From the NCBI GenBank assembly GCA_021818445.1, contig JAKAEB010000001.1, forward strand, positions 16,664-80,663: a stretch of DNA of 64,000 bases, in the 5' to 3' direction. Made by a program: the position numbers and the translations under genes. Below, in pieces: positions 20,879 to 42,425 of this stretch. Numbering within the stretch: the stretch's first letter is position 1; each line of letters opens with the position of its first letter. The notes below the pieces were generated by a model. It searched no databases, was not told the DNA's origin, and saw only the letters and a list, made by a program, of their open reading frames with translations. The stretch is from Planctomycetota bacterium (GTDB taxonomy: Bacteria; Planctomycetota; Phycisphaerae; WQYP01).

Positions 20879-20917
20879 CGCACATCCCTGTGTTGGCCGT
20901 ATAGTTCACCTTACGGC

Positions 20918-21910: not shown

Positions 21911-22006
21911 TCCTTCCCGCTTGGGGTGATCAGGGGGTCTGCTACAATTCGCTTATAACGCATTAAACCATCACATCGGATGATTTTGGTACCGCGACGT
22001 GCGGTT

Positions 22007-23026: not shown

Positions 23027-23346
23027 TTCCCTTTAATTTCGCCTCAGCACGAAAAACCCCGCCGAAACCTCACCCCGTTGTGGCGGTTCCCGAGTTCCCC
23101 GGCACTGCGCATTTGCAGCGGATGGTAATCCGCTCCATCTTTATTCTAATCGGCGATGCGCCTCCCGCCAACATCACCTCCATACGACGCTTCATAACTT
23201 CTTACCGATACCCACTGGTGCCCAAAGATGCATCTCGCACCTTAATAAAAACAGTTTTATCGGATGGCGCTTGTATCGCACTCTGCAATCGTGTATCCCA
23301 TAGGTAGAAGTGTTTTGGACATCCATGGTCTAACCCGGGGGCCGAC

Positions 23347-26031
23347 ATGCAACCCACACCAGAATTTGATTCCGCCAATCATGAGTCTAATAAAATGGCC
23401 AAACCCGAAGAGGCCGCAAAATGGCGACAGTGGGGGCCCTATGTCTCCGCCCGCGCGTGGGGCACCGTTCGCGAAGACTATTCACCCAATGGCGAGGCCT
23501 GGAGCTACTTCTCCCATGACATGGCCCGCAGTCGGGCTTACCGCTGGAGCGAGGATGGTATCGCCGGCCTTTGCGATGATGAACAATTCCTCTGCCTTGC
23601 CCCCACCTTTTGGAATGGCCGCGACCCCATCCTGAAAGAACGTTTCTTCGGCTTGACCAATCGGGAGGGTAATCATGGCGAGGACGTCAAAGAATATTGG
23701 TTCGCCACCGATAACGTTCCATCTCATTCCTACATGAAATTGATCTACCGCTATCCCCACGCGGAATTTCCCTATCGCGGACTTGTGGAAATCAATCGCC
23801 ACCGTGGCCCAAACCAGCCGGAATATGAACTCGTCGATACCGGCGTCTTCGCTGATGACGCATTTTTTGACATCACCATCGAATATGCCAAACTGGAACC
23901 CGGTAAAATTTATGCCCGCTTTACCATCAAAAATTGCGGCAAGGCACCTGCACCCTTTCATTTGCTCCCGACGCTCTGGTTCCGCAACACCTGGTCGTGG
24001 AATAAGAACGCCCCGTCCGAACCGACCATCACACTTGTCGGCAATAAAGACAATGGCGATGTGGTGCTGAAAGCCGACCATGAAAAACTCGGCACCTATT
24101 ACCTCCATGCGAAAGACGTCCACGAAACGCTTTTTACATTTAATGAAACCAATCGTCAAAAACTTTACAACGCCCCCAATACCCATCCCGCGGTTAAAGA
24201 CGCCTTCCACGATTACATCATCAACGGTAAACACAACGCCGTGCACCAGAAGCCGGCCGGCACCAAGGCCGCCCTTTATTTCACCTGGTTGCTGGCACCG
24301 CAATCCACCAAAGTGGTGGAAATTCTGCTTGCCGACGCCCGGGTGGACCAGCCGTTCAAGGAATGTGCCGCCACCTTTGATGCCCGGAAAAAGGAAGCCG
24401 ATCATTTTTATGCCCGCATGCTGCCGGAAAACTGCGATCCCCAATGGCGGCGGGTATCCCGGCAGGCCCTGTCAGGCATATTGTGGAATAAGCAATTTTA
24501 TAATTATCCCGTCAGGCAGTGGCTCCTCGGCGATGACGACTTCCCCGCGCCACCCCAACGCCTCAAAGGTCGCAATCATGATTGGACCCGCCTCAACGCC
24601 CGCGACATCATTGTCATGCCCGATAGCTGGGAATATCCGTGGTTTGCCGCCTGGGACTGGGCCTTCCATCTCCTCACACTCTGCTATCTCGATCTCGATC
24701 TGGCCAAGTCCCATTTAGAACTGATCGTGTCTGAACGCTATCAGAATCTCTCCGGCCAGTTGCCAGCCTATGAATGGGCATTCGGCGATGTCAACCCGCC
24801 CGTTCAGGCACTGGCGACCTGGCGCATTTACAACAACGAAAAACGCCGCAGGAAAAAAGGTGATCATGAATTTCTCGAACGCATGTTCCACAAACTCCTG
24901 ATTAATTTTGTCTGGTGGGTCAACCGCAAAGACAGCGTGGGAAAAAATATTTTTCAAGGTGGGTTTCTCGGCCTTGATAATATTTCTATATTTAATCGCA
25001 GTCAGCCACTGCCCGCCGGACTGTCGCTGGAACAGGCCGACGGCACCGGCTGGATGGGCCTCTTCTGCCTGAACATGATGACAATTGCCATTGAACTCTC
25101 GCAGGTGGACCCCAGCTACAGCCACATGGCACTGAAATTCTTCGATCATTTCCTCGCCATCTCTGAAGCCATCAATTCTCCCGTTGAAGGTGGCAGTGGC
25201 CTGTGGGATCGGCAGGACGGTTTTTATTACGACAAAATCACCAGTGACGAAGGACGCACCGTCATTCCGCTTCGCCTGCGGTCCAATGTCGGTATTATTC
25301 CCCTGTATGCCGTGCAGATATTGGAAAAAAGCTGGTTCGTCAATTTGCCGGCATTTAAAGACCGTTGGAATTCATCCGATATGCGTGATCGCATTGACTG
25401 TGCCCACGTCGGCGTAAGCACGTCCGCCGACGGCGAACGCCTTCTGCTGAGTATTGCCAATCAGCACCGTCTGCAGAGGGTTTTGGCTCGCGTAGTTGAT
25501 GAAAATGAATTTCTTTCACCCTACGGCGTGCGATCTCTTTCCCGCTTCTACCTTAATAATCCCTATCGCCTGCGCCTCGACGGACACGAATTGGCTGTCA
25601 ACTATGAACCGGCCGAGTCCACCTCCGGTCTATTCGGCGGCAATTCCAATTGGCGCGGCCCAGTATGGTTCCCCACCAATTATCTCCTCATCACGGCACT
25701 GCGTACCTACAACCGCTTTTACGGTGACGGCATCAAAGTGAACAACCCCGCCAAAGCCGGCGAGCAGATCAATTTGCTTCAGCTTTCTGAAGAACTTTGC
25801 CGTCGTATGATCAGCATCTTTACACGCGGTGCCGACGGCCGACGACCGGCTTTCGGTGGTCAGGCCATGTTTCAGGAAAATCCGCTATGGAAAGACCTCA
25901 TTCAGTTTAATGAGTATTACCATGGTGATAACGGCGCGGGCATAGGCGCTTCGCATCAAACCGGATGGACCGCCCTGGTGGTTCAGATGATTGACTATGC
26001 CACACGCAGTTATGATCGCAGCGGCGCTTGA
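23347..26031 (+). CDS. GH63 family glucosidase (MGH1-like / mannosyl-oligosaccharide glucosidase-like)
   Basis: 894 aa. N-terminal WGPYVSARAWGTVREDYS and WxxDGIAGLCDD, and an (alpha/alpha)6 C-terminal region typical of bacterial GH63. Confidence 0.7.
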   Translation: MQPTPEFDSANHESNKMAKPEEAAKWRQWGPYVSARAWGTVREDYSPNGEAWSYFSHDMARSRAYRWSEDGIAGLCDDEQFLCLAPTFWNGRDPILKERFFGLTNREGNHGEDVKEYWFATDNVPSHSYMKLIYRYPHAEFPYRGLVEINRHRGPNQPEYELVDTGVFADDAFFDITIEYAKLEPGKIYARFTIKNCGKAPAPFHLLPTLWFRNTWSWNKNAPSEPTITLVGNKDNGDVVLKADHEKLGTYYLHAKDVHETLFTFNETNRQKLYNAPNTHPAVKDAFHDYIINGKHNAVHQKPAGTKAALYFTWLLAPQSTKVVEILLADARVDQPFKECAATFDARKKEADHFYARMLPENCDPQWRRVSRQALSGILWNKQFYNYPVRQWLLGDDDFPAPPQRLKGRNHDWTRLNARDIIVMPDSWEYPWFAAWDWAFHLLTLCYLDLDLAKSHLELIVSERYQNLSGQLPAYEWAFGDVNPPVQALATWRIYNNEKRRRKKGDHEFLERMFHKLLINFVWWVNRKDSVGKNIFQGGFLGLDNISIFNRSQPLPAGLSLEQADGTGWMGLFCLNMMTIAIELSQVDPSYSHMALKFFDHFLAISEAINSPVEGGSGLWDRQDGFYYDKITSDEGRTVIPLRLRSNVGIIPLYAVQILEKSWFVNLPAFKDRWNSSDMRDRIDCAHVGVSTSADGERLLLSIANQHRLQRVLARVVDENEFLSPYGVRSLSRFYLNNPYRLRLDGHELAVNYEPAESTSGLFGGNSNWRGPVWFPTNYLLITALRTYNRFYGDGIKVNNPAKAGEQINLLQLSEELCRRMISIFTRGADGRRPAFGGQAMFQENPLWKDLIQFNEYYHGDNGAGIGASHQTGWTALVVQMIDYATRSYDRSGA

Positions 26032-26070
26032 TCCTTCGCACAGAATCGTGCGCAAGGAGGAAACAACAAT

Positions 26071-26820
26071 ATGACTATCCCTTTATTTGTTAGCGATAAA
26101 GCCAAGCCACAATTGGCAACGCAGTCGCTTTCCGTTGGCTGTCTGCTCTTCGACCAAATGGACCAGATCGACTTCACAGGGCCGTTTGAAGTGCTTTCTC
26201 GTATGCCGGGCGCAGCGGTTCAAACTATCGGGAAAAGGGTTGCACCCATTCGCGATGTGCAGGGTCTTCAGCTATTTCCGGATAAAAGCATCGCGGAAGC
26301 AGGACTCTTCGACGTTCTGGTTCCGCCCGGCGGTTTTGGACAGCAGTCGCTAATGCACGACGAGGAAGTGCTGGGCCTCATTCGCAATCACGTGCAGGAA
26401 GATAAGCTTCTGTTTTCGGTCTGCACGGGTGCCTTGCTCTGCGGCGCCGCGGGCGTACTGGCGGGCCGATTCGTTACCACCCACTGGAGTGCCCGCCACT
26501 TGATGCGGCATTACGGCGCAACTCTTGCCGATGCAAGGGTCGTGTTCGATGGCAACATAATCAGCGCCGCCGGTGTGACGGCAGGGCTGGATGCGTCCCT
26601 CGTGCTGGTCTCACTCCTGCGCGGCGATGCCGTCGCGCAGGAAATTCAACTGGCCATCGAGTATGCCCCGAACCCCATCTTCAACAGCGGAACTCCCGAT
26701 ATCGCGCCGCCCAATGTCCTTGAGAGTTTTCACCTGAAATACAAGCCGATCGGGATGGCGCGGGAGACGGAGGCCACCCGCTACGCGGCGGCCCACCCAA
26801 GCGTTCGTGCGGATCAATAA
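26071..26820 (+). CDS. DJ-1/PfpI family protein (GlxA-like amidotransferase fold)
   Basis: Conserved nucleophile elbow LLFSVCTGALLCGAAGVL. AGGAGG RBS upstream. Confidence 0.75.
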   Translation: MTIPLFVSDKAKPQLATQSLSVGCLLFDQMDQIDFTGPFEVLSRMPGAAVQTIGKRVAPIRDVQGLQLFPDKSIAEAGLFDVLVPPGGFGQQSLMHDEEVLGLIRNHVQEDKLLFSVCTGALLCGAAGVLAGRFVTTHWSARHLMRHYGATLADARVVFDGNIISAAGVTAGLDASLVLVSLLRGDAVAQEIQLAIEYAPNPIFNSGTPDIAPPNVLESFHLKYKPIGMARETEATRYAAAHPSVRADQ

Positions 26821-27211
26821 ATGTCGGCCGCATGCCCCATGTTTAGCGCCGTCGCCGGGCGATGGGCGCTAATTGCAATGCCAAATTGCGGCCCCTGTGA
26901 CAACAACGTCGCATCCGCCCCCCCATTTAGCCGCGTGCATGGTGCACGCGTGACGACGCATGACCCATCCGGCCGCCCCTATTTTCAACACAAAGCGCGC
27001 CAAGAAAAGAACGCCAGCCGATTAGTTTTTTATTAACCACGACCATGGCACCGACCCCAATAATTCGGCTTTACGCCCGCAATATTGCGACGCGGGCAGC
27101 GGGCGGCGAATGGCTGGCGCATCCACGCCGGTCGGGTTTCCTCAAAAATTGGCCGGCTTCAGCGCGTGCGTTGGTACGGTCATCAGCCGATGCGCTTTTC
27201 GGACGATTGGC

Positions 27212-27988
27212 TCATTCGATGGCTGCGGTTTTGCCTGCAGCATCGGCGGCGGGGGCCATGGGGCGCAGAAGCGTGGCGATCTTGGCGTCAAGCGGTGCCC
27301 GCCTCGCAAGGTAAGGCCTTGCCACAGTCCATGCGACCAACGCCACCGCCGGGCAAAGGAACCAAAGTCCCCCCGAGAAAGCCACCCTCTGCGTAAGTAC
27401 CGAAAATACCACAAGCAAACCGTCCGCATATTCTACCGCTTTCGAGGTGGCACCAATCCAGCAGGCATCCGGTGTCCCCGACGGGCCGCTTGCCTCGATA
27501 ATCACTGCGGACGCACCCTTATCGTACCGAGTGGCGGATAGAACAAAATACTGCTTCCTGTCGCCCCGAACCACGAAGCCCGCGACCGGGAACCGATACC
27601 CGCTCGCCGGCCCGAATCCCTCTTCTGCAGCCAGAAGGGCGACCTTTTCGGCCGGCAGCGCGACCGCGACGCCCCTCGGCGTGTCATGCAACAGTCCCAA
27701 GGCTCGGATGGGGGCTACCGCGTCGCGGCCCCAACGCCTCGCAACGAGTACCGCGAGGAAAACCAGGCAACTCAATATTCCGATTAACGACCAGAATCCC
27801 TCCACCCAGAGACGGCCGTACAGCAGGGCCCCCGAGTTGTATAAGCCGTCGAAGACTTCAAAGAGCGTAACCGCAACGGCACCACCGCACAAAGACTCGA
27901 TACATACGTTAGAAAACCGAGCGAGCGTCCAATCGAATTTACTGCGTCTGACAAAAATTGGCTGCGATGCAACACCAGTGCCGCTCAT
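27212..27988 (-). CDS. Candidate immunity protein (integral membrane) cognate to the upstream RHS-CT toxin
   Basis: Start MSGTGVASQPIF... overlaps the toxin stop (CCATGA, with ATG nested in TGA). ~258 aa with several hydrophobic helices. Assignment is by position only. Confidence 0.45.
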   Translation of the reverse strand: MSGTGVASQPIFVRRSKFDWTLARFSNVCIESLCGGAVAVTLFEVFDGLYNSGALLYGRLWVEGFWSLIGILSCLVFLAVLVARRWGRDAVAPIRALGLLHDTPRGVAVALPAEKVALLAAEEGFGPASGYRFPVAGFVVRGDRKQYFVLSATRYDKGASAVIIEASGPSGTPDACWIGATSKAVEYADGLLVVFSVLTQRVAFSGGLWFLCPAVALVAWTVARPYLARRAPLDAKIATLLRPMAPAADAAGKTAAIE

Positions 27989-28731
27989 GGTACCACCACC
28001 GGCTGTGTGCCAACCCAAGTTGGCCCGTAAACCCTTATCCATTTGGTCTGATAGGGATTGCCGTCGAGGGCCCAGTCGACCGCATCGGTTGCCCCCTCGC
28101 TGGCCGCCGCACCCACGGCCAGGCTCTGTACGGGATTTTTTGTTAAAAGGCCCGTCCCGGCGGCTGCGGCCGTTCCGACAACCATTCCGACGGCGTGCGT
28201 AAACCAAGCAGGTGGATTCTCACCCCGTTCAACCTGCGCCGTGGGTGCGTACACAGGAAGTCCTATTTTTACGCAATGCCCGTCCACCATCACTTTATGG
28301 ATGCCGGTGTAGCCGACCTTTTCCCTGCCCGTCGCGCCCGTGAAATGCCACCCGCCAGCGAGTAATGGACCGAGTACGGCACCGCCAACCCCATCGTAGG
28401 GCGGTGGGAGGTTGGTCGGATAATTCCCCGCGTTTCGGCCAGAGTATTGCTGCAACAGAGCCTGCGTTTGGGGCGAAAGTGGCGGAGGCGGTGGATACAA
28501 GTTCGGATTGCCGCCGCCCAACCCGGAGGCATCTGCCTTCCCCACCGGGCTGCTTTGGACGCATTCGTAAAGATTGATTCCGCCTTGGTAGCCGATCGGG
28601 TCGCGGGTAAGCCACCTGCCCAGATGCGCGGCATAATACCGGTTCCGCACATAATAATTCTGCGTTTCGGCATCGGCGTTGTAGCTGCTACCGCCCGTGG
28701 GAGTTTTATTTTCAGCAATTGCGACCATCAA
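27985..28731 (-). CDS. Orphan RHS repeat-associated core tail + C-terminal polymorphic toxin domain (glycine-zipper-rich)
   Basis: Starts inside the RHS core terminus: YYVRNRYYAAHLGRWLTRDPIGYQGGINLYECVQSSPVGKADASGL, matching RYYDPxxGRFxxxDPIGxxGGxNLYxY...DPxGL. Followed by an unrelated ~170-aa tail containing VGMVVGTAAAAGTGLL. No RHS repeats upstream. Confidence 0.7.
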   Translation of the reverse strand: MMVAIAENKTPTGGSSYNADAETQNYYVRNRYYAAHLGRWLTRDPIGYQGGINLYECVQSSPVGKADASGLGGGNPNLYPPPPPLSPQTQALLQQYSGRNAGNYPTNLPPPYDGVGGAVLGPLLAGGWHFTGATGREKVGYTGIHKVMVDGHCVKIGLPVYAPTAQVERGENPPAWFTHAVGMVVGTAAAAGTGLLTKNPVQSLAVGAAASEGATDAVDWALDGNPYQTKWIRVYGPTWVGTQPVVVP

Positions 28732-29050
28732 TCGGCCTCAAAACTGGAATCAACAACTGGCAACATAACGCGCGGGGGTTCGGGCTGCAAGGAGGGCACA
28801 GCGATATTTCGCACAGGAATGCGTCATTCGTTAGCGCGCCGGGACAAGCCCGGCGGCTCGCTGGGCCATTCCCATACCGAAAGTTTTAACTGTTAACTTT
28901 GCGAATCTCGCGGTGAGGAAAAGGAGTTTGCACCGCCGGGTGCGCCGAGAGCGCGAAGATTTGCGAATCTGATTATTTCGTATTTGTTAATTCTCTCCGC
29001 GGCTCCGAGGCTCTGTGCGAGATATAAAAACCTCTCTGTGTGACATAATG

Positions 29051-29088
29051 CATCATGCCGATGGCATGATGATGTTTGTTGTTTTTTT
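29051..29088 (+). terminator. Perfect 9-bp hairpin (CATCATGCC-gat-GGCATGATG) + T-rich tail, repeat copy 1
   Basis: catcatgccgatggcatgatgatgtttgttgttttttt. Reads as an intrinsic terminator on the plus strand. On the minus strand a second hairpin (GCCACA-acctc-TGTGGC) plus TCTTTTTCTCT lies 15 nt away. Confidence 0.45.
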
Positions 29089-29363
29089 AGCGCGCAGAGA
29101 AAAAGAGCCACAGAGGTTGTGGCACTGGACAAATCTCGCAATATTGGCCGCATCACGACAATTGGGCAGGTCCATATCCCGTATGCTTGGCGTTTCTTGG
29201 CGTCCTCCGCGCCCTTCGCGGTGAATCAGGGTAATTATTTGCACCGCCGGGAGCGCCAAGAACGCGAGGACTTGCGAAACTGATTATTTTGTATTTGTTA
29301 ATTCTCTCCGTGCCTCCGAGTCTCTGCGCGAGATCGTAACACTTCCCTGTGCAAGTAAAGGTA

Positions 29364-29401
29364 TCATGCCGATGGCATGATGATGCTTGTTGTTTGTTTT
29401 T
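29364..29401 (+). terminator. Same hairpin/T-tail motif in repeat copy 2
   Basis: atcatgccgatggcatgatgatgcttgttgtttgttttt. Confidence 0.4.
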
Positions 29402-29696
29402 AGCGCACAGAGAAAAGAGCCACAGAGGCTGCGCCACCGTATCAAACACGATCCCTTGGCCGAAGCATCCCAATTGGGCATCTCCGGGCAAGCCCGCGGC
29501 CATGTATTTCTGGCGAGCGAGACCGGTGATTGGGCGCAGCGCGGGTACTTTTGGTGTGACGTATCCAGCCCTGAAAAAAACGCTTAGCACATTGCGGCAC
29601 CAACTGAACCCCTAAAATGTTATCGATGTTCACTCCGGGTTGATTCAGCCCGATTTCCGTCTTGACCCTGTCTGCCCGCATTGATATAGTCACCGG

Positions 29697-30131
29697 ATGG
29701 GCATTGTTCGGATGGCTTTTATCCCCCTATTGATTTTGATCGTGGCTGTCGCGCCGATATTCTGCCCTTGCCATGATATGGTCATCGGCCTGATAAGGGC
29801 CCCTGGAGCTACCTCAATTTCTGCCTGCCAGTGTGCCCCTGGGCCTGGTGTGGCGTCGCGGTATCTGCCTAAGCAGAGGCCGACAGGCCTGTACGGAATA
29901 TCGTGCGGGCGCAATTCTGAGCCGATGTGCCTTGATCACCTGTTCAAAGGCGTGTTGCGCGACTCTGCCACCACCATCTGCAACCATTTCGGGCATTCAT
30001 TCGCCGCCTGCTTAACGGCCTTGAGGGGCGTGACAGGTGCGGCTGTATTTGCCACCAGTCCACAGCGGTACTTCACTGCCGATGCCGGCGCAAAAACACT
30101 GCTGCGCCAGCGTTGCGCCCTGATTATTTAA
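29697..30131 (+). CDS. Hypothetical Cys-rich small protein with N-terminal hydrophobic segment
   Basis: 144-aa ORF with 9 Cys, MGIVRMAFIPLLILIVAVAPIF... Weak RBS. No recognisable family. Confidence 0.25.
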   Translation: MGIVRMAFIPLLILIVAVAPIFCPCHDMVIGLIRAPGATSISACQCAPGPGVASRYLPKQRPTGLYGISCGRNSEPMCLDHLFKGVLRDSATTICNHFGHSFAACLTALRGVTGAAVFATSPQRYFTADAGAKTLLRQRCALII

Positions 30132-30227
30132 TAACCTGATCAAATCACCTCGCCCCGGTTGCCGGAATGCTGCGCCTTCTATGGTGCAGCGGCTTGAGCG
30201 TCTGTTATTTATCAGGAGTTGCTTCAT

Positions 30228-30560
30228 ATGTTGCGTCAATTATTTCCTTTTGCCCTGCTGGCTCTGTCTCTCGCCGGCTGTGCGCACGTGCCCACGATTG
30301 CGCCCGTGGCTATGGATAACCCGGCCAATCCCTCGGCCGCGGTCGGCCCGGCATTTCCAGGAACGGATTTTCTGAATGTGGCGGCCGCCGTACAGGAATC
30401 CAATCCAATTGCGGTTACAGCCGGTGCCAATTTACCTGGGGCACCACCATCGGTTCATGCGGGTAAAAAAACTTTACCAACTGCGACCGATGACATGCAC
30501 GGTATGAACATGCCGGGAATGAAAATGAATACGTCTAAAAATATGGGGGGCAAACAATGA
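30228..30560 (+). CDS. Met-rich periplasmic lipoprotein (copper-binding candidate)
   Basis: MLRQLFPFALLALSLAGC lipobox. C-terminal MHGMNMPGMKMN Met-rich motif. AGGAG RBS. Start overlaps the downstream OMF gene (ATGA). Confidence 0.55.
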   Translation: MLRQLFPFALLALSLAGCAHVPTIAPVAMDNPANPSAAVGPAFPGTDFLNVAAAVQESNPIAVTAGANLPGAPPSVHAGKKTLPTATDDMHGMNMPGMKMNTSKNMGGKQ

Positions 30561-31957
30561 ACAAACGAATTGCCGGCTACTGGCGTGCTGGATCGGTGGG
30601 CATACTGCTCGTCGCCCTTGCATGTGGCGGTTGTGCATCAGTACCGCAGCGGGGCGGGTTCGAATCGGTATCATTGGCAGCAAAACAGCGTCTTGGACAG
30701 CCGCTGATCTGGGCCCAGAACCAAAAGCAACAGCAAAAACTTGACGGTCTTGTGCACCGGATATTGCAACGCCAATTAACCCCCTCGGCAGCGGTTGAAG
30801 TCGCCTTGCTTAACAACCCTGAATTGCAGGCCCGATATGAACAACTGGGCATTTCACAGGCGGAGGTTGTGCAGGCCGGCCTGATCAGTAATCCGGTTCT
30901 GGCGTTTGATTTCCGCTTTCCCGCGGCACCCAATTACGGTTGGGACGCGAGCATCGCACAGGATTTTGCCAATATCCTTCTCCTGCCGGCCCGCAAAAAT
31001 GAAGCCCACGCCAACTTTAAGGCCACGCAAGCCATGATTGCCCAATCGGTTATCAAGCTGGCATACCGTACCCGGCAGGCATTTGATCGCGTCGTTGGCG
31101 ACCGGCAGATGATCCAGTTGGAAACGGATATTAAAAAAGGCCAGGATGCGGCCCTGGACCTCGCAAAAAAAATGCGGCAGGCCGGCAACACACCCCCCTT
31201 GGCCTACGACCGGCAATTGGTGATTGCCGAACAGGTACGCATGCAGTTATCGCTGGATAAGGCCAGCTATCTGCAAGACCGCGAGCATTTGTATCGGCTC
31301 ATGGGACTATGGGGATGGGACGCATCCGCCAAACTTCCCGTCCGATTGCCCGATCCGCTTCATGAAACGCACTTCGCCGGACTCACGGCCTTGGCATTGC
31401 GACGGAGCCTGACCCTGAAAATGGCACGAAACGGGCTTAAGGCTGCGGCCGTGGCAGTAAAGGTTTCCGGCTGGGCGGGCATATTGCCCGGTGCGACGAT
31501 TGGTGCCAACTATGTGCGCGACCCCGATGTGCGCGGCACACTTGGGCCGGCAATTTCCATACCCGTGCCGATCTTTAATCAGGGCCAGCCGGCGCAGGCC
31601 ATAGCGAGGGCACGGTATCTGGCGGCTTATCGGCATTATGAATCACTGGCCATCGGCATCCGCTCGCAGGTGCGTACCCGCTGGGTCGCTCTTAAGGCGG
31701 CGTTTCTACGCGTGCTCTTTTACCGCAAGGTCATGCTGCCGTTGCGACGGCGGATGCTGCATGAAACGCAGCTCTCCTACAACGGCATGCTGGACAGCGG
31801 GTTTTTGCTTATGCAGGCGAAGATTGATGAAATTAATGCCGCCCGGCGCTATGTGAAAGCATTGGAAATGTATTGGTTGGATCGGGCGCGTCTGTCCGCA
31901 ACGCTCGGCGGTCGATTGCCCACCGCCAGTACCCACGGAATGGCAAATAAAAAATGA
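30557..31957 (+). CDS. TolC-family outer membrane efflux protein (CusC-like OMF)
   Basis: 466 aa. Signal/lipobox LVALACGGCAS. Two OEP-repeat halves with conserved LLNNPELQA...YEQLGISQAE segments. Confidence 0.75.
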   Translation: MNKRIAGYWRAGSVGILLVALACGGCASVPQRGGFESVSLAAKQRLGQPLIWAQNQKQQQKLDGLVHRILQRQLTPSAAVEVALLNNPELQARYEQLGISQAEVVQAGLISNPVLAFDFRFPAAPNYGWDASIAQDFANILLLPARKNEAHANFKATQAMIAQSVIKLAYRTRQAFDRVVGDRQMIQLETDIKKGQDAALDLAKKMRQAGNTPPLAYDRQLVIAEQVRMQLSLDKASYLQDREHLYRLMGLWGWDASAKLPVRLPDPLHETHFAGLTALALRRSLTLKMARNGLKAAAVAVKVSGWAGILPGATIGANYVRDPDVRGTLGPAISIPVPIFNQGQPAQAIARARYLAAYRHYESLAIGIRSQVRTRWVALKAAFLRVLFYRKVMLPLRRRMLHETQLSYNGMLDSGFLLMQAKIDEINAARRYVKALEMYWLDRARLSATLGGRLPTASTHGMANKK

Positions 31958-31992
31958 TTCGATGTCAGAGTATATTTTCAGGAGTATGAAAT

Positions 31993-33405
31993 ATGAATGA
32001 TAAAATTAATCGGCGTACCATTTTAGCATCCAGCGCCGCTCTGGCGGCCGGGGCCGTTTTCAAGGCGACGGCGGCGCAGGGGGCATCCGTTCCGCCGGTG
32101 GCCCGTGAAGGGGCGTCGTACGGTAACCGGGATCGATCGGCGGCACATGCCAAGGCATTATGGGCCAAACCCTTGCCGCCCGGGCTTCCCAACCGCGATT
32201 ATCTTCCGGTGGTGGCACCCAATACCGGTACGCTGCCCTTCAAAATTGTTGATGGAGTAAAAGTATTCCATATGGTCGCCATGGAATTTTGGAATGAATT
32301 TGTCCCCGGACTTAAGGCACTCGTCTGGGGATATAACGGCATGCTCAACCCCGTGCTGGAGGCCGTCGAAGGCGAAAGAGTCCGTATCTATGTGACCAAT
32401 CGCCTGCCGGAAAAAACTACTGTCCATTGGCACGGCGTCTATGTGGATAACGGTATGGATGGTGTAGGCGGCCTGACGCAAAACCCCATCCCGCCGGGAG
32501 AGACATTCAAATATGAATTCAATCTCGTTGAGCCTGGCACCAAGATGTATCACCCGCACTACGACGAGATGACGCAGATTGCATTGGGCATGGCGGGACT
32601 GTTTATTATTCACCCGCGCAAACCGCGCTACCGGGTGGATCGCGATTTTGCCATCATGCTGCACGAATGGAGCATCGTGCCGGGCACCTATCGGCCCAAT
32701 CCACTGGAAATGTCAGACTTCAACGTCTTTACCATGAATGGTAAGTCGTTTCCGTCAACGCATCCTTTGGTCGCCCGCACCGGCCAGCGCGTGCGCATCC
32801 GCCTCGGTAACTTAGGCCCGATGGATCACCATCCCATTCATCTGCATAACTATTCCTTTCAGGTTGTCGGCAGTGACGGTGGCGATTATCCGCCTTCTGC
32901 CTGGCAGCCGGAAACTACGGTGCTGGTGCCGGTGGGGTCTACCCGTGTCGTGGAGTTTGATGCCACCAACCCCGGCGACTGGGCTATGCATTGCCATATG
33001 ACCCACCACACCATGACGCAGATGGGGCATCACTTCGGCAACATGATCGGCGTTAAGCCGGGAGAACTGGGCCACAAGATGCGCCAGTTGCTACCGCAAT
33101 ATATGACCATGGGTCAGGATGGGATGGGTTCTCCCATGGGCATGCCCACTATGGCCAATACCGCACCCATGGAAGGGGGCAAAGGTCCCTATGGATTTAT
33201 TAATATGGGCGGGATGTTCACCATACTTAAGGTACGCGACGGCATAACCAGTTACGACGATGTCGGCTGGTATGCATCGGAGGTCCCCAAGGGGACCGTC
33301 GCCGAGCCGGCCCAAGTACGTGATCTGCATCGCGATGGGATCAATCCGGAAAACATACCGGCACCGATTCCCGGTCCGTCATCACCGGCGGCGCCGCCCA
33401 TGTAA
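31993..33405 (+). CDS. Multicopper oxidase (CopA/CueO-type), Tat-secreted
   Basis: Tat motif INRRTILASSAALAAGA. Cu sites HWHG, HPIHLHN and HCHMTHH. Met-rich insert MTMGQDGMGSPMGMPTMANTAPM. Confidence 0.85.
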   Translation: MNDKINRRTILASSAALAAGAVFKATAAQGASVPPVAREGASYGNRDRSAAHAKALWAKPLPPGLPNRDYLPVVAPNTGTLPFKIVDGVKVFHMVAMEFWNEFVPGLKALVWGYNGMLNPVLEAVEGERVRIYVTNRLPEKTTVHWHGVYVDNGMDGVGGLTQNPIPPGETFKYEFNLVEPGTKMYHPHYDEMTQIALGMAGLFIIHPRKPRYRVDRDFAIMLHEWSIVPGTYRPNPLEMSDFNVFTMNGKSFPSTHPLVARTGQRVRIRLGNLGPMDHHPIHLHNYSFQVVGSDGGDYPPSAWQPETTVLVPVGSTRVVEFDATNPGDWAMHCHMTHHTMTQMGHHFGNMIGVKPGELGHKMRQLLPQYMTMGQDGMGSPMGMPTMANTAPMEGGKGPYGFINMGGMFTILKVRDGITSYDDVGWYASEVPKGTVAEPAQVRDLHRDGINPENIPAPIPGPSSPAAPPM

Positions 33406-33450
33406 TGGTCTTGCACATTACTTATTCAACTTTTTTTACAGGAGACGAAC

Positions 33451-34104
33451 ATGAAAGCGACTAATTTCATAATGATTGGTACAGCGATTGCAGCAATCGG
33501 CGGGGCGATATGGGCTTTTACTTCAAACCTTCCAGTATGTTTGGCCGGCGGTATGGGCGACATGAAGATGGGCCCCATGCCCAGACACATGGCCATGGGG
33601 GGTGTGCTGATCGGGTACAGGCAGGCGCAAAAAATTGTCAACGCGGCCGATCGCGAAGGCAAAGTGAGTGGAAGCAAAAAGCACCCAGTAGTGGTATTTC
33701 ATGGCAAACAAATACATATCCGCATGATCGCTGTGGAACCGGGTGCTCCGGACCAGACCTTTGAAATTCATAAACTGGTGGACCCGGCAATTTCGGTGAA
33801 AGGGGGTGCCAAAATTGATCTTACCCTGCTGAATATGGATTACGGCCCCGGCATGATGCATGGTGTGGTAATCGGCAAGATCAAACCACCATTCCACATG
33901 GTTATCAGCCTGCCCGTCAAACATCAGTTGGTGAGTTTACCGATGATCATGCCCCGATCGCGAAAGTCCTTACGCAAATCGTTGTACTACGCCGAGTCAA
34001 CCCATTTTAAGGCACCTGAAAAGCCCGGTATATATTATTATTTATGCCAGATGCCCATGCACGCCAAGCAGGGCATGTATGGCAAGTTTATCGTGCGAAG
34101 ATAA
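33451..34104 (+). CDS. Cupredoxin-like (type-1 copper) protein
   Basis: Signal peptide. C-terminal YYYLCQMPMHAKQGMYGKFIV fits the Cys-x-x-x-His-x-x-x-x-Met type-1 Cu ligand loop. Upstream Met/His-rich region. Confidence 0.6.
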   Translation: MKATNFIMIGTAIAAIGGAIWAFTSNLPVCLAGGMGDMKMGPMPRHMAMGGVLIGYRQAQKIVNAADREGKVSGSKKHPVVVFHGKQIHIRMIAVEPGAPDQTFEIHKLVDPAISVKGGAKIDLTLLNMDYGPGMMHGVVIGKIKPPFHMVISLPVKHQLVSLPMIMPRSRKSLRKSLYYAESTHFKAPEKPGIYYYLCQMPMHAKQGMYGKFIVRR

Positions 34105-34417
34105 TGCTCTGCTGCGCGGGCATAGCGCGTCTACCACTTTCAACGCTGGGAACTTGGCAAAATACCGAGGCATTCAGTCCCGCGCGGGTGGCGTCCCGGC
34201 ATATCTTGGTGTGCCGACGAACTGTGCATTAGTGTTCAGGTGAACACGGCGAAGCTGCGCACGTACCGGCCTGCACGGAACAGTTAAACGCGGGGTTTCC
34301 CCGCCATCATGGCTGTACCCCACAACGGCGCGGCACCACCGACATTGAAAATGAGTATGGTTGAGAAAATCCCGCCCACATGGTAACGCACGCTTATCGT
34401 GCGAATCACCGCTGTCC

Positions 34418-35224
34418 TTAAATACCCGCAAGTTCATTTACCAGCATCTCAATGGGGGTTTGCACGCAGGTAAAAATGGGTGTGTCACGCAGCGTGAAGC
34501 GGCTGCCTTCGGTTTCGCGCAGTTCCTGCACCAAGTCGAGAAAGTCGCCTGGCTGGTCGGTTTCAAATGCGACTACAAATTCCTGATCATCAATGCCAAA
34601 ACTGTACGTTGTATTGAGTTTTACCGAGGGGTATTTATTTCCCACCATGATGTGCTCATCCATCACACCTTGCCGCGTCTGCTTGCTGAGCAAATACCAA
34701 TCGCGGGTTTTAACAAACGGGTAAACGAAATTATATTTACGTTTGCCGGGGACAATGCTGGTGCGGGTGTCGTCATGGGCAGGATCAATCTTATCCACAT
34801 ACGTGCTGCGCTTGCTTTGTGCAAGGTAGCTGTAGGGGGTTGTCAGGTATCCACCGATGGGTAGCCGATTAATGGCAGCGGAAAAATGCTGCAGTTGGTC
34901 AAGATCATAGCTGATCTTCCAGAACATAATATCCACATCCGGTCTTGTGCCGACGCAACTGTACACCACCAACAGCATTTTGGTTGGATCATTGGCCTTG
35001 ACCAAGTTAACCAGATCATGCAGTTGTTGGGCTTGGATGTCTTTGGCAAGACGGCGAAATTCCGGCATGATTTTGTAAAAACTGAACGAAATATATTGGC
35101 GGGCTTTAGCAGTTGGGTGCGCAGTTGTCGGCTCCGGTGCGGCTGCAGCCGCCGAACCACGCGCTGCCGGTGGGCTGATGGGTCGTTCATGACTCTCTGC
35201 GGCCTTTGGTATGACGTTTGACAT
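34418..35224 (-). CDS. Chlorite dismutase-like / coproheme decarboxylase (HemQ) family protein
   Basis: YSFGIDDQEFVVAFETD and MKANDP... family motifs. Start chosen at MSNVIPK so as not to overlap cca; the track ORF extends to 35392. Confidence 0.65.
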   Translation of the reverse strand: MSNVIPKAAESHERPISPPAARGSAAAAAPEPTTAHPTAKARQYISFSFYKIMPEFRRLAKDIQAQQLHDLVNLVKANDPTKMLLVVYSCVGTRPDVDIMFWKISYDLDQLQHFSAAINRLPIGGYLTTPYSYLAQSKRSTYVDKIDPAHDDTRTSIVPGKRKYNFVYPFVKTRDWYLLSKQTRQGVMDEHIMVGNKYPSVKLNTTYSFGIDDQEFVVAFETDQPGDFLDLVQELRETEGSRFTLRDTPIFTCVQTPIEMLVNELAGI

Positions 35225-35366
35225 CGCGGATAATCTCCTTCGCTCAGTAAACAATAACCTATTCCATCTATCATATGGGCAAGGTCGCATTCTTTCCCGC
35301 ATCGGCGCGGCATATTCGTTTGAAGTCGCATTGGCATTTCGCAGATGCCTCCCGGCACTGATCGCA

Positions 35367-36623
35367 TCAAGGCTGATGCGGGCTCGATTCAACCAGCGCG
35401 CGGGCGTGCGTCAAGGCCTCCTTTTTATCCGCAAATTCGTTGGCAAGTTGCATGTCATAGAGAATATTCAGCCATTGCTTAAAGCCCGGTCCGGGCGTGG
35501 CACCGAGGGAAATCAAATCTTCTCCGGTAACGAAAGGTTCCGGTCGGACGCCCTCGGCCTGCAAATCGGCCAGATGCGCTTGCAGATACGCATCATCATG
35601 GACACAAAAAAAGAGCTCCTTCAAAAGCGGGAATCTTGCATTCGACATCATGCGCTTAAGTTCGCTACGCGAAAGCTCACACCACCGTTGCAGGTCTTCC
35701 ATATGGCGATTGATCCACGCCGCCGCACCAATTTCGTCGTTGCTGAGCATCAGATGGCTCTGCAGCCTCGGCCAGAATTCGCGGGTCAACCCGCCATCTC
35801 TTGATAAATCGTGGACCAGCGCCGCAAGTGCAATTTCAAACGCTGCGATCGGTGGCAGATTTGCCAGCCAGCCTTCACGCAAGGCACTGGGTACATCCGG
35901 GGTATCGGGATGACTGGCGATACTCAATTCATCTGGCCAGATGTCAGACAGCAGCCCACTTTTTGCCAGCAGGGCCATACCGCGCACGCGATGGGCTGTT
36001 GCCAGGATACCTTTAAGTTCCAGACCAATGCGTTCCCGGCTGATGAGTTTTATTTTTTCATGCTGGTTTCGGATGGCGGCAAATGTGGCTGACTCAATGT
36101 CGAAACCGAATCGGGCTGCAAACCGAATCGCCCGCATCATTCGCAGGTGATCTTCGCCAAAGCGGGCATGTGGATCGCCAATGGCTCGAATCAATTTTTG
36201 GCTCACATCTTTCTGTCCGCCGACGTAGTCCACCAACTCGCCGTTTATCGGATTAAAAAACATGCCATTGATGGTAAAATCGCGCCGTTGGGCATCATCC
36301 TTTGCGGTGGCAAACTGAATGCTGTCCGGTCGCCGACCGTCGCTGTACACACCGTCGGTTCGAAACGTGGCAACCTCGATGGTGTGGCCGTGGACATGGG
36401 CGATCACTACGCCAAACGCCGCTCCGACGGATTGACTTCGGGGGAACAGTGCCCTTATTTCATGCGGCTTGGCATTGGTGGCGACATCATAGTCCTTCGG
36501 CTCGACACGCAGGAGTTGGTCGCGTACGCAGCCACCGGCCCAGTAGGCTTCAAAGTTTTTAGATTGCAGACGCGCCGTAACCTCCCATGCCGCTTGACGA
36601 TTAGTTGTGGGAGGGTTTGTCAT
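35367..36623 (-). CDS. cca: CCA tRNA nucleotidyltransferase / poly(A) polymerase family protein with HD domain
   Basis: GGCVRDQLL...DYDVAT nucleotidyltransferase head and RTDGVYSDGRRPD. C-terminal HD domain. Confidence 0.7.
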   Translation of the reverse strand: MTNPPTTNRQAAWEVTARLQSKNFEAYWAGGCVRDQLLRVEPKDYDVATNAKPHEIRALFPRSQSVGAAFGVVIAHVHGHTIEVATFRTDGVYSDGRRPDSIQFATAKDDAQRRDFTINGMFFNPINGELVDYVGGQKDVSQKLIRAIGDPHARFGEDHLRMMRAIRFAARFGFDIESATFAAIRNQHEKIKLISRERIGLELKGILATAHRVRGMALLAKSGLLSDIWPDELSIASHPDTPDVPSALREGWLANLPPIAAFEIALAALVHDLSRDGGLTREFWPRLQSHLMLSNDEIGAAAWINRHMEDLQRWCELSRSELKRMMSNARFPLLKELFFCVHDDAYLQAHLADLQAEGVRPEPFVTGEDLISLGATPGPGFKQWLNILYDMQLANEFADKKEALTHARALVESSPHQP

Positions 36624-36784
36624 CGTCCCCGCATTTTAATCGAAGTTGAAAGGATTCGGTGGTAGATGAAGCATCGGCTCTGCATTAACATGCAGGGAGG
36701 CGCGGCGGGGAAGTTAGTTAACCGCCGTGGCATTAACCGTGCCGTGTACGGTTAAGAAATGTTTTTTTCAATCTGGAGGCATGC

Positions 36785-38164: not shown

Positions 38165-38239
38165 AGTGTGTCGGGCGACGTATGGATGTTGGGCCCGAAG
38201 GCGTTTCGGTGCCGATGTGGTAGTTTTTAAGGTGCATGG

Positions 38240-39664: not shown

Positions 39665-39705
39665 TCTGTTTGTAAATGCAGGAACCCGCTGGTTGATTCT
39701 CTCGC

Positions 39706-40656: not shown

Positions 40657-40776
40657 AAAGACCGTGCTGTTGTCCGCAGCGAATCGTGTAATCAGGTTTA
40701 AGGTTTTGCCGCTACCCCGCAGGGCGAATTGATATCGCGTGCGTCAACGGTGGCCGGGCCTTTTTCCCCATGCCGG

Positions 40777-41967: not shown

Positions 41968-42425
41968 CCATTACAAGAAAACCCCGTCAACGCGTGTTGG
42001 CCACATGACCCGATCCGGCAACCGTTGCAAAAGGGGACTCGGTGGGGGGATCACACCCAAAAGCACCCTGATAAATCGTACCGGAGCGAGGGTCTGACGC
42101 TCCGCTGCGACTGGCTGCCAAAGCGGCATAAAATATACACGCATAAGGTCTCCCTTCGTAACCTGCAAAATAAAATCGGCTATAAAGACAAAAAATATCG
42201 GTTTTTATTGCAATTTAATGATTGAACGTTATACTCCGAAGTCGTTATGGTGTGGTGCTCTCGTAGCGGCCAAGGCGGGGGCAGACGCTTGGAAAAAGCG
42301 TTGCCTTTGAATAATGCCCGCTTGTATATGAAAGTTTGGATAAATGAACGCCAAAAAACTCAGAAAACGCCATTTTTGTTAATGTTTTTTGATGCGTCAT
42401 CCGACAATCATTTAGGTATGCGGTC

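What the first reader, a model, noticed from the sequence alone, without database searches (positions are those of the whole stretch)
28908..29527. Tandem ~310-bp duplication with perfect palindromic hairpin/U-run modules upstream of the orphan toxin
Two head-to-tail copies at ~85% identity. Each carries CATCATGCC-gat-GGCATGATG followed by TTTGTTGTTTTTTT (plus-strand terminator geometry). Fifteen nt away, on the other strand, each carries GCCACA-n5-TGTGGC + TCTTTTTCTCT. Just 5' of the hairpin is an extended -10-like TGACATAAT. The unit could encode a short structured RNA, or be a bidirectional terminator/insulator protecting the silent toxin cassette. Alternatively it is a duplicated cassette-junction remnant typical of RHS recombination hot spots. 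Track ORFs across it (28893..29156, 29153..29590) are low-complexity and repeat-derived.
Basis: seen in the sequence. Interest (0 to 1): 0.6.

Follow-up and report, generated by a model that had tools for sequence, protein, structure and literature searches.

The report
Palindromic repeat cap of toxin islands
The two ~310-bp copies are real, non-coding members of a lineage-specific family of palindromic repeat units that sits at the upstream edge of stand-alone Rhs toxin/immunity gene islands, where genomes of near-identical strains are seen to recombine; it is an interesting local oddity rather than a new kind of system.

Summary
Two head-to-tail units lie at 28927-29237 and 29238-~29520, with period 311 and 80-83% identity over ~245 nt. 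The same array appears in independent assemblies, so it is not an artefact.

It is not a recent local duplication. About 18 homologous units were recovered from at least 8 arrays of 1-4 units in related metagenome genomes. Every array lies directly upstream of the first cassette of an orphan Rhs-C-terminal toxin/immunity island, always in the same orientation. The window's two units belong to different old positional types: 'a' (proximal) and 'c' (distal cap).

Each unit is a ~300-nt imperfect palindrome. Its centre is a near-invariant 9-bp stem with a 3-nt loop, followed by a T-rich tract on the window + strand, which is antisense to the toxin.

- The TGACATAAT motif is not conserved.
- There is no codon periodicity, no Rfam match, no conserved promoter and no covariation.

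Two near-identical strains diverge abruptly inside the array (from 28869), and unit number differs (2 versus 3+).

Best reading: a recombination-prone, terminator-bearing non-coding cap or insulator of toxin islands. An sRNA is not supported. Interest is moderate to low.

The parts
28927..29237 (+). Repeat unit A, proximal 'a' type. A complete ~311-bp imperfect palindrome.
   Evidence: nhmmer 355.9 bits. Nearest relatives are the proximal units of other loci: L62_a 92%, L59_a 91%.
29238..29520 (+). Repeat unit B, distal-cap 'c' type. The head and centre are conserved. The tail is replaced by a GC hairpin segment (CCGGGCAAGCCCGCGG, 29484-29499).
   Evidence: nhmmer 293.3 bits. It clusters with the distal units L62_c and L65_1. 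Homology to other loci ends at window ~29506-29517.
28831..28926 (.). Proximal degenerate half-unit: a tail-like segment and junction that joins the array to the cassette leader. It includes the GC hairpin GCCGGGACAAGCCCGGC at 28838-28854. The window/L033 breakpoint starts at 28869.
   Evidence: Weak alignment to the unit tail. Family D3. Identity to L033 falls from 100% to 88.5% here. An HMM does not detect it significantly.
29051..29088 (+). Central 9-bp stem with 3-nt loop (29051-29071), then a T-rich tract. This is the terminator-like module of unit A and points away from the toxin gene.
   Evidence: Hairpin dG is -12.2 kcal/mol, and 11 of the first 15 tail bases are T.
29362..29401 (+). 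The same module in unit B: TATCATGCC-GAT-GGCATGATG followed by ATGCTTGTTGTTTGTTTTT.
   Evidence: dG -10.6 kcal/mol, 9 of 15 T.
29107..29133 (-). Second hairpin GCCACA-ACCTC-TGTGGC followed by TCTTTTTCTCT on the toxin strand. It is intact in unit A only and is not a conserved feature of the family.
   Evidence: It folds (about -5 kcal/mol) in only 4-5 of 18 units.
28762..28790 (-). Conserved promoter-like pair of the cassette. -35 TTGCAG is at 28790..28785, followed by a 17-nt spacer, then -10 TATGTT at 28767..28762. The GAGG Shine-Dalgarno follows at 28739..28736.
   Evidence: Alignment of 13 cassette leaders: the hexamers and spacer length are conserved in 12 of 13 and the spacer sequence is free; L065b keeps only the Shine-Dalgarno and ATG. 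The pair is weak against the sigma-70 consensus and the consensus scan did not call it.
27985..28731 (-). Orphan Rhs C-terminal toxin (247-248 aa). It consists of the ~70-aa tail of the Rhs core followed by a variable toxin domain.
   Evidence: TIGR03696 matches residues 16-71, E 2.7e-15. More than 100 short homologues share only the N-terminal ~70 aa.
27212..27988 (-). Candidate immunity gene (258 aa, two hydrophobic segments, no family match). It overlaps the toxin stop codon by 4 nt.
   Evidence: Gene calls in L021/L022. No Pfam or NCBIfam hit. The immunity role is inferred from position only.
26828..27117 (.). Boundary element that closes the island. It contains the GC-rich hairpin AGCGCCCATCGCC-CGG-CGATGGCGCT (toxin-strand orientation).
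   Evidence: Present 3' of the cassette arrays in L053, L059, L062 and L067/68, and next to a leader in L056. Homology ends at window 26828-26832 in all of them. Short-read contigs break at 26881-26891.

Best explanation
The two copies belong to a lineage-specific family of ~305-bp non-coding units. Stacked head-to-tail in arrays of 1-4, these units form the upstream cap of small genomic islands. Each island carries one or more stand-alone Rhs-core-tail toxin/immunity cassettes and ends in a separate boundary element.

Shown:
- Every unit is an imperfect ~300-nt palindrome.
- Its centre is a near-invariant 9-bp stem with a 3-nt loop, followed on one strand only (antisense to the toxins) by a T-rich tract.
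- Arrays at different loci are collinear (unit types c-b-a), so the array was copied together with the islands.
- Unit number differs between strains.
- Sequence identity between otherwise identical strains collapses inside the array.

Inferred:
- The array acts as portable homology. Unequal and ectopic homologous recombination there adds or removes units and re-joins islands to new chromosomal neighbours. The long palindromes may themselves promote breakage.
- The conserved hairpin/T-tract acts as an intrinsic terminator. It would keep transcription that leaves the island in the antisense direction out of the neighbouring gene. The neighbour ends within 100 nt of the array in 4 of 6 loci.
- In the few units that keep the second hairpin, incoming read-through may also be stopped.
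- The cassettes have their own promoter-like element, so the array is not needed to drive them.
For: - Family and association: unit HMM hits occur in the window (2 units), L033 (3 plus a partial), L053-55, L059/L061, L062/L064, L065, L071/72 and L073. All lie immediately upstream of the first cassette leader and all are antisense to the toxin. There are none elsewhere in the 64-kb window.
- Collinear positional clades a/b/c.
- Palindrome: 94% of cells pair, against 36-50% when partners are slid by 1-3 columns. The unit also gives a weak reverse-strand self-hit.
- Hairpin: present in 18 of 18 units. dG is -8 to -12 kcal/mol in 16 of them, and 7-12 of the first 15 downstream bases are T.
- Terminator-like sites are enriched in the arrays: 6 found versus 2.5 expected in the window and 11 versus 1.8 in L062.
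- Non-uniform constraint: 3 invariant runs of at least 10 columns versus 0.12 expected, P=0.0002.
- Recombination: window and L033 are 100% identical over 20071-28868 apart from 1 mismatch. Identity then falls to 87-88.5% from 28869 onward, unit number differs, and the far flank is unrelated.
- L065 and L066 switch from unrelated to identical sequence inside the conserved 5' coding region.
- Many short-read contigs end inside the array and at the boundary element.
- Non-coding: no codon periodicity.
Against: - The terminator points away from the toxins, and no promoter that would feed it was found.
- The T-tract starts 3-9 nt after the stem, which is not ideal for an intrinsic terminator.
- Canonical terminator-like sites are not enriched elsewhere in this genome: 17 found versus 23 expected in 20 kb.
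- There is no transcript evidence at all.
- Both half-sites of the stem and the outer loop bases are invariant, which fits a protein-binding palindrome equally well.
- The L033 and L066 rearrangements come from short-read metagenome assemblies and could be chimeric joins across repeats.
- Loci were retrieved through toxin proteins or repeat-derived ORFs, so the exclusive association with islands is biased.
- Islands without any unit exist (L056, L066, L069), so the array is dispensable.
Confidence: 0.5

Rival explanations
1. Tandem small-RNA genes. Each unit encodes a + strand sRNA that ends at the hairpin/T-tract. It might regulate the toxin or immunity mRNAs through the head/tail complementarity with the leader.
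For: A conserved terminator-like module is present in 18 of 18 units. Unit A folds better than shuffles, with z -3.2 on + and -4.9 on -. Tandem sRNA paralogues are a known arrangement (own knowledge).
Against: - No conserved promoter. The -35-like TTGCGA and the TGACATAAT motif are each missing from several units, and the scans find no promoter in the arrays.
- The most conserved block (GCGCGCAGAGAAAA-GAG-CACAGAGG) lies downstream of the T-tract, outside such a transcript.
- There is no Rfam hit at gathering score, and only a 14-bit chance hit at E<=5.
- The covariation score is 0.074 against 0.078 in shuffles.
- Both strands fold about equally well, -59.8 versus -55.1 kcal/mol.
- Unit B folds no better than shuffles, z -0.39.
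Confidence: 0.1
2. An array of operator sites. The invariant inverted repeat ATCATGCC-N3-GGCATGAT, together with the symmetric CTCYGYG motifs, binds a dimeric DNA-binding protein. This could be a regulator or a nucleoid-type silencer that controls the first cassette promoter or the island as a whole.
For: - Both half-sites are near-invariant, while the central loop base takes all four values.
- The invariant blocks are arranged symmetrically around the centre.
- No compensatory changes are seen.
- The arrays always lie upstream of a conserved promoter-like element.
Against: - No regulator gene is linked to the islands in any locus.
- The nearest site is ~290 nt from the -35 element.
- Islands without units keep the same promoter.
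- The one-sided T-tract is unexplained by this model.
Confidence: 0.12
3. A functionless satellite or decayed mobile element. The units would be a MITE-like or REP/BIME-like selfish palindrome, or neutral slippage products, that happened to be copied along with the islands.
For: - The head and tail are ~30-nt imperfect inverted repeats.
- Copy number is variable and the array is dispensable.
- The family was not found in species-representative genomes, JGI metagenomes or IMG/VR with exact-pattern scans.
Against: - All units are head-to-tail in one orientation at one kind of site.
- No solitary copies were seen in the DNA held.
- The island ends share no terminal inverted or direct repeats: scores 17-18 against a shuffle mean of 16.
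- No transposase is nearby.
- Units 12-35% diverged still keep invariant blocks, which is more than expected by chance (P=0.0002).
- Positional types are retained across loci.
Confidence: 0.2
4. An RNA antitoxin or type III toxin-antitoxin-like repeat array, or an integron attC/CALIN-like recombination site, serving the cassettes.
For: A repeat array lies directly upstream of a toxin gene, with palindromic units next to gene cassettes.
Against: - The terminator faces the wrong way for a ToxI-like arrangement, and the unit is 305 nt rather than tens of nt.
- The cassettes appear to have protein immunity genes.
- Units are not found after each cassette. A different boundary element closes the arrays.
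- The unit is 2-5 times longer than an attC site.
- No integrase gene is present in any locus.
Confidence: 0.03

Closest known systems
Orphan Rhs/CdiA C-terminal toxin-immunity modules and their recombination (E. coli, Salmonella, Serratia; PMC3150448, PMC3967940, PMC7043789)
   Same: The cassettes start with the tail of the Rhs core (TIGR03696) and continue into diverse toxin domains followed by a small downstream gene. Recombination occurs in the conserved 5' region (L065 versus L066). Expression from promoters internal to orphans has precedent (PMC7043789).
   Different: These cassettes are scattered at many loci next to housekeeping genes, with no full-length rhs gene nearby. The one exception is L068. 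Each cassette has its own conserved Shine-Dalgarno and ATG, and 12 of 13 also the promoter-like pair. Islands are framed by a palindromic repeat cap and a separate boundary element. To my knowledge neither element is described for Rhs loci.
Repetitive extragenic palindromes in clusters (REP/BIME, ERIC-type intergenic repeats)
   Same: They are non-coding, imperfectly palindromic and intergenic, and often lie just 3' of a gene. Copy number varies between strains. They are able to act as terminators, mRNA stabilisers and recombination sites (own knowledge).
   Different: The unit is ~305 bp, against 20-40 bp for REP and ~127 bp for ERIC. All copies are head-to-tail rather than alternating. There are only 1-4 copies per site. 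In the DNA available, they are seen only at toxin islands.
Rho-independent (intrinsic) terminators
   Same: A GC-containing 9-bp stem with a 3-nt loop (dG about -10 to -12 kcal/mol) is followed by a T-rich tract on one strand, and this is conserved in all units.
   Different: The T-tract is interrupted and offset by 3-9 nt. The module is not at the 3' end of any identified transcription unit and is repeated every ~305 bp.
Conserved repeats flanking silent cassettes in recombination-based variation systems (for example the RS and Sma/Cla repeats of Neisseria pilS/pilE loci; own knowledge)
   Same: Conserved non-coding repeats frame variable cassettes and coincide with recombination junctions.
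   Different: Directed gene conversion into an expression locus has not been demonstrated here, and there is no sequence similarity.

Membership tests
Intrinsic terminator | Stable GC-containing stem-loop | tested here: met
   A 9-bp stem is present in 18 of 18 units. dG is -8 to -12.2 kcal/mol in 16 of them and -4.8 in 2.
Intrinsic terminator | U-tract directly 3' of the stem | tested here: inconclusive
   7-12 of the first 15 bases are T in all units, but the tract starts 3-9 nt after the stem and is interrupted. The consensus scan accepts most units.
Intrinsic terminator | RNA 3' ends at the site, downstream of a transcription unit | not testable with these tools
   No transcript data are available, and no promoter was found feeding the + strand.
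   GCCACA/TGTGGC folds in only 4-5 of 18 units. The right arm varies freely.
sRNA gene family | Conserved promoter upstream of the transcribed part | tested here: not met
   The -35-like and -10-like motifs of unit A are absent from several units. No promoter-like site is found in the arrays.
sRNA gene family | Structure supported by covariation, or a match to a described RNA family | tested here: not met
   The covariation score is 0.074 against 0.078 in shuffles, and 376 of 500 shuffles reach the observed value. Rfam gives no match.
REP/BIME-type extragenic palindromes | Short (20-40 nt) palindromic unit in alternating orientation within clusters | tested here: not met
   The unit is ~305 nt and all copies are head-to-tail in one orientation.
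REP/BIME-type extragenic palindromes | Tens to hundreds of copies dispersed genome-wide, with a RAYT transposase | not testable with these tools
   Whole genomes could not be scanned. In the window and the fetched loci, units occur only at island caps.
MITE / transposon remnant | Terminal inverted repeats plus target-site duplication, with solitary dispersed copies | tested here: not met
   The unit's head and tail are inverted repeats. The island ends share no inverted or direct repeats above shuffles, and no solitary copies were seen.
Integron attC / CALIN | A 57-141-nt attC after each cassette, with conserved R''/R' cores and (for integrons) an IntI integrase | tested here: not met
   Units occur only at the 5' end of arrays and not after each cassette. 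A different boundary element closes the arrays. No integrase is present in any locus. A formal attC model was not run.
Type III toxin-antitoxin (ToxI-like RNA repeats) | Short tandem RNA repeats transcribed with the toxin and separated from it by a terminator on the same strand | tested here: not met
   The unit is 305 nt and its conserved terminator-like module is antisense to the toxin.
Orphan Rhs toxin/immunity module (neighbouring gene) | Rhs-associated core tail (TIGR03696) fused to a variable C-terminal domain | tested here: met
   TIGR03696 matches at E 2.7e-15 with 56.6 bits, against a cut-off of 32.5. Homologues share only the first ~70 aa.
Orphan Rhs toxin/immunity module (neighbouring gene) | Location downstream of a full-length rhs gene | tested here: not met
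   No RHS-repeat protein is present in the 64-kb window. Of the fetched loci, only L068 has one.

The most novel reading that the evidence does not exclude
The palindromic cap, the cassettes with their own promoter-like elements and the sharply ending boundary element may together define a previously undescribed mobile platform for Rhs-type toxin cassettes. In that case islands would be moved between chromosomal sites, and cassettes shuffled, by a dedicated mechanism that acts on the palindromic units. Possible mechanisms are hairpin or cruciform-directed breakage, or an unlinked recombinase. The stand-alone Rhs-core-tail toxins would be expressed and used without being fused to an Rhs shell.
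Probability: 0.1. Interest if true: 0.7.

Novelty: new variant of a known kind. Interest (0 to 1): 0.35.

Why it matters
This is a concrete, sequence-defined example of how polymorphic toxin cassettes are organised and rearranged outside the proteobacterial model organisms. The islands are dispersed, carry their own promoter-like elements, and are framed by conserved non-coding elements at which near-identical strains differ.

If the cap really insulates or mobilises the islands, it would explain how such toxin genes can be placed next to essential housekeeping genes without disturbing them, and how toxin repertoires turn over.

If it is only a hitch-hiking repeat, it still matters in practice. 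It marks sites where short-read metagenome assemblies of this lineage break or may join wrongly.

Tried and rejected
- Tandem Repeats Finder found no array.
- Rfam at gathering score and at E<=5, and tRNA/tmRNA search, found nothing relevant.
- The genome-contig scan with the 19-nt palindrome gave 20 hits. All are chance matches of 19-23 nt with no flanking similarity, so this capped scan yielded nothing.
- The metagenome-contig scan with a two-block pattern gave 11 chance hits with no unit similarity.
- Two IMG/VR scans gave 0 hits.
- Coding hypothesis for ORFs 28893..29156, 29153..29590 and 29015..29224: rejected, because there is no codon periodicity. The ORFs were still useful as bait to find other copies.
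- Hypothesis that the unit is a remnant of boundary plus leader left by cassette deletion: rejected, because the unit HMM has no significant hit to leader or boundary.
- Transposon-like island ends: rejected.
- Strand assignment from G-U versus C-A asymmetry: abandoned. Each strand finds its own register, and the consensus energies are similar (-59.8 versus -55.1 kcal/mol).
- Organism identification failed. Only a distant homologue is labelled Phycisphaerae, and the putative H-X9-DG protein in L033 hit no family.
- Literature search for Rhs orphans in Planctomycetes found no description of such repeats.
Full report
**1. The observation**

Window 28927-29237 (unit A) and 29238-~29520 (unit B) are head-to-tail copies with a start-to-start spacing of 311-312 nt.
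- The repeat finder gives 83% identity over 178 nt and 71% over the next 73 nt.
- BLAST gives 80.3% over 244 nt, E 3e-58.
- Identity over the full length is 72.6%, because the last ~90 nt of unit B have diverged.
- Probes of 20-31 nt taken from the unit occur only at these two places in the 64-kb window.
- Tandem Repeats Finder reports nothing, which is unsurprising for two diverged copies.

The hairpin CATCATGCC-GAT-GGCATGATG with a T-rich tail is present in both copies. The opposite-strand hairpin GCCACA-n5-TGTGGC and the TGACATAAT motif are intact only in unit A.

The array is not an assembly artefact. It is identical in an NCBI MAG (GCA_027436235.1) and an ENA assembly (ERZ27237538). A third assembly (GCA_021826605.1, L025) spans the A/B junction.

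The ORFs laid over the repeat are spurious. Variable alignment columns fall 45/39/48 on the three codon positions.

**2. Surroundings**

To the left, on the minus strand, lie two genes.
- A 247/248-aa protein at 27985-28731. Its residues 16-71 match the tail of the Rhs-associated core domain (TIGR03696, E 2.7e-15). The rest has no family match.
- A 258-aa gene at 27212-27988 with no family match. I take it as an immunity candidate from its position only.

To the right come ~700 nt without genes. This stretch holds a sigma-70-like promoter at 29662-29690 (+). It is followed by a copper-resistance-like operon: a 110-aa protein, an outer-membrane efflux protein, a multicopper oxidase and a cupredoxin-like protein.

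The rest of the window is ordinary chromosomal housekeeping DNA with no full-length rhs gene.

**3. The unit belongs to a dispersed family**

Exact-pattern scans of species-representative genomes, JGI metagenomes and IMG/VR gave only chance matches or nothing.

Two indirect routes worked.
- I used the spurious ORFs translated from the repeat as protein queries. They retrieved ORFs called over homologous repeats in other assemblies, and their contigs could then be fetched.
- I searched with the orphan toxin. This returned more than 100 short proteins (about 140-430 aa) that share only the first ~70 residues at 70-84% identity and then diverge completely. This is a polymorphic family of stand-alone Rhs-core-tail toxins. 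Several of their loci were fetched.

A unit HMM then found 18 units (17 distinct) in at least 8 arrays:
- window: 2 units;
- L033: 3 plus a 20-nt partial fourth;
- L053-55: 1 plus a partial;
- L059 and L061: 3 plus a partial;
- L062/L064: 3;
- L065: 1 (this is the same MAG as the window);
- L071/72: at least 2;
- L073: at least 2.

Wherever the context is visible, the array lies immediately upstream of the leader of the first toxin cassette. It is always in the same orientation, with the unit '+' sense antisense to the toxin.

In four loci, the gene on the far side is co-directional with the toxin and ends 19-95 nt before the array. These are an unannotated 346-aa gene, aroA, metK and an S49 peptidase gene.

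Other islands have the same leader but no unit (L056, L066, L069/70, and the L067/68 locus, which holds a real RHS-repeat protein). The array is therefore optional.

**4. Island architecture**

Thirteen cassette leaders were aligned.
- All 13 share a GAGG Shine-Dalgarno sequence and the ATG. Twelve of them also share a ~70-nt proximal segment: TTGCAn, a 17-nt spacer of free sequence but fixed length, and TATGTT/TATATT. L065b, an internal cassette, lacks this -35/-10-like pair.
- In window coordinates on the minus strand: -35 at 28790-28785, -10 at 28767-28762, Shine-Dalgarno at 28739-28736, ATG at 28728.
- This is the conservation pattern of a promoter. It is weak against the sigma-70 consensus and the scan did not call it. 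It argues against the cassettes being necessarily silent.
- First cassettes add a further conserved leader with a GC hairpin (window 28838-28854) and a degenerate half-unit (28831-28926).

Arrays end distally in a 'cap' variant of the unit that carries the same kind of GC hairpin (window 29484-29499).

The 3' side of the cassette arrays is closed by a different ~290-bp boundary element (window 26828-27117). Its homology stops at window 26828-26832 in at least six loci.

The two island ends share no inverted or direct repeats above shuffled controls.

**5. Anatomy of the unit**

In a 13-unit alignment (A4) each unit is a long imperfect palindrome.
- The head (TTTGCACCGCCGGGAGCGCCAAGAGCGCGAAG) pairs with the tail (CTTGGCGTCCTCCGCGCCCTTCGCGGTGAA).
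- Two inner arms carrying CTCYGYG motifs pair with GCGCGCAGAG and GAGCCACAGAGG.
- The centre is the 9-bp stem.

For this structure 94% of alignment cells form pairs, against 36-50% when partners are slid by 1-3 columns. The HMM also gives a weak reverse-strand self-hit.

Covariation is no better than in shuffles (score 0.074 versus 0.078; 3 pairs with double changes versus 1.4 expected). RNAalifold gives similar consensus energies for the two strands (-59.8 and -55.1 kcal/mol). The palindrome is therefore real, but nothing shows that an RNA structure is under selection or which strand would matter.

Conservation is patchy beyond chance: three invariant runs of at least 10 columns against 0.12 expected (P=0.0002).
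- The central hairpin is present in 18 of 18 units. dG is -8 to -12 kcal/mol in 16 of them.
- It is always followed, on the window + strand only, by a T-rich tract with 7-12 T in the first 15 nt, starting 3-9 nt after the stem.
- The middle loop base takes all four values.
- No promoter-like site was found inside any array.
- Rfam has no match even at E<=5.

**6. History and dynamics**

A neighbour-joining tree of the units groups them by position rather than by locus.
- Proximal 'a' clade: wA, L59_a, L61_a, L62_a, L71_1 and the three L033 units.
- Middle 'b' clade: L59_b, L73_2, L62_b, L71_2 and L53_1.
- Distal-cap 'c' clade: wB, L62_c and L65_1.

Arrays at different loci and in different genomes are thus collinear. 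The array is old and was copied with the islands. The window's pair is a c + a composite, not a fresh local duplication.

Window and L033 come from two different samples.
- They are 100% identical from 20071 to 28868 apart from one mismatch.
- From 28869, inside the proximal half-unit, identity drops to 87-88.5% and L033 has three 'a'-type units.
- L033 then continues into an unrelated flank: the stop codon of a 346-aa gene followed by an ECF sigma factor. None of this is in the window.

L065 and L066 are unrelated upstream. They become identical at about codon 49 of the first toxin gene, which is the classical Rhs recombination region.

Many short-read contigs from other samples end inside the array (window 29153-29412) or in the boundary element (26881-26891).

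These observations show that the conserved parts of the islands, the array included, are places where related genomes differ by homologous exchange. The caveat is that the rearranged versions come from short-read metagenome assemblies, so chimeric joins cannot be excluded.

**7. Interpretation**

I consider the array a non-coding, recombination-prone cap of orphan Rhs toxin islands. Its conserved centre most likely acts as an intrinsic terminator for transcription leaving the island on the antisense strand, which would insulate the closely abutting neighbour gene.

The structural and comparative parts are shown. The terminator and insulator function and any active role of the palindromes in breakage are inferred.

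The terminator reading has weak points.
- It points away from the toxins, and no upstream promoter feeds it.
- The T-tract is offset from the stem.
- Canonical terminators are not generally enriched in this genome (17 found versus 23 expected in 20 kb).
- An invariant 9-3-9 inverted repeat would serve equally well as a protein-binding site.

Rival readings, with my confidence in each:
- functionless hitch-hiking repeat: 0.2;
- operator array: 0.12;
- sRNA genes: 0.1;
- type III toxin-antitoxin-like or attC-like element: about 0.03.

**8. Comparison with known systems and novelty**

The neighbouring gene passes the sequence test for an orphan Rhs toxin, but it is not next to a full-length rhs gene.

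The repeat works most like clustered extragenic palindromes (REP/BIME, ERIC) and like an intrinsic terminator. It fails the membership tests for REP/BIME (size, orientation), MITE (ends), attC (size, placement, no integrase), ToxI-like arrays (size, strand) and sRNA families (promoter, covariation, Rfam).

A literature search found no description of such repeats at Rhs orphan loci.

I rate it a new variant of a known kind, of moderate to low general interest. It is useful for understanding how toxin cassettes are organised in this lineage and as a marker of assembly-prone sites.

The producing organism could not be named. Only a distant toxin homologue is annotated as Phycisphaerae.

Noticed in passing
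window 28728-28790 (minus strand); leaders of L053, L056, L059, L062, L065-L067, L069: The orphan Rhs-core-tail cassettes carry a conserved -35-like TTGCAn, a 17-nt spacer, a -10-like TATGTT, a GAGG Shine-Dalgarno and an ATG (Shine-Dalgarno and ATG in all 13 aligned, the -35/-10-like pair in 12). The 'orphans' may therefore be expressed on their own rather than silent.
   Followed up: partly
window 27985-28731 and proteins P0005-P0124: More than 100 short proteins (about 140-430 aa) share only the ~70-aa Rhs-core tail and then carry unrelated C-terminal domains. They are scattered over many loci next to housekeeping genes. None of the 120 listed hits is a full-length Rhs protein. How such shell-less toxins would be delivered is unexplained.
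   Followed up: partly
window 26828-27117: A ~290-bp boundary element with a GC-rich hairpin (AGCGCCCATCGCC-CGG-CGATGGCGCT) closes the cassette arrays. Its homology stops at window 26828-26832 in at least six loci. In L056 it lies directly upstream of a leader instead. Short-read contigs break inside it.
   Followed up: partly
L069 6780-6900: In this island the junction segment and the GC hairpin of the leader are inverted relative to all other loci (hairpin loop ACAA instead of TTGT). This suggests a small inversion mediated by the palindromes.
   Followed up: no
L053 2822-4362: The same cap, leader and boundary frame hold a different cargo here: a 110-aa protein with a degenerate Rhs-core tail (no TIGR03696 hit) and a 399-aa WG-repeat protein (PF14903, E 8e-52). 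This may be a decayed toxin with an immunity-like partner.
   Followed up: no
alignment A4 columns 33-52 (window 28959-28977 in unit A): Units carry one of two unrelated versions of this ~20-nt segment: TTGCGAATCTGATTATTTCG-like or CGGGCGCGGCGTGATGTCG-like. Both are followed by the same T-rich stretch. The scan calls a weak hairpin plus T-run in each version.
   Followed up: no
window 29662-34104: A sigma-70-like promoter (TTGACC, 17-nt spacer, TATAGT with an upstream TG) precedes a copper-resistance-like cluster: a 110-aa protein, an outer-membrane efflux protein, a multicopper oxidase and a cupredoxin-like protein. A chlorite-dismutase-family gene follows on the opposite strand.
   Followed up: no
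L033 9790-11597: In the related strain the array abuts the stop codon of a 346-aa protein with no family match, which is preceded by an ECF sigma factor. This flank is absent from the whole 64-kb window.
   Followed up: partly
window 47925-47946: The best canonical terminator in 30000-49999: AGGGCCGGGGTTACCCGGCCTT followed by TTTTATT. The organism therefore does use classical intrinsic terminators at least occasionally, although such sites are not enriched overall.
   Followed up: no
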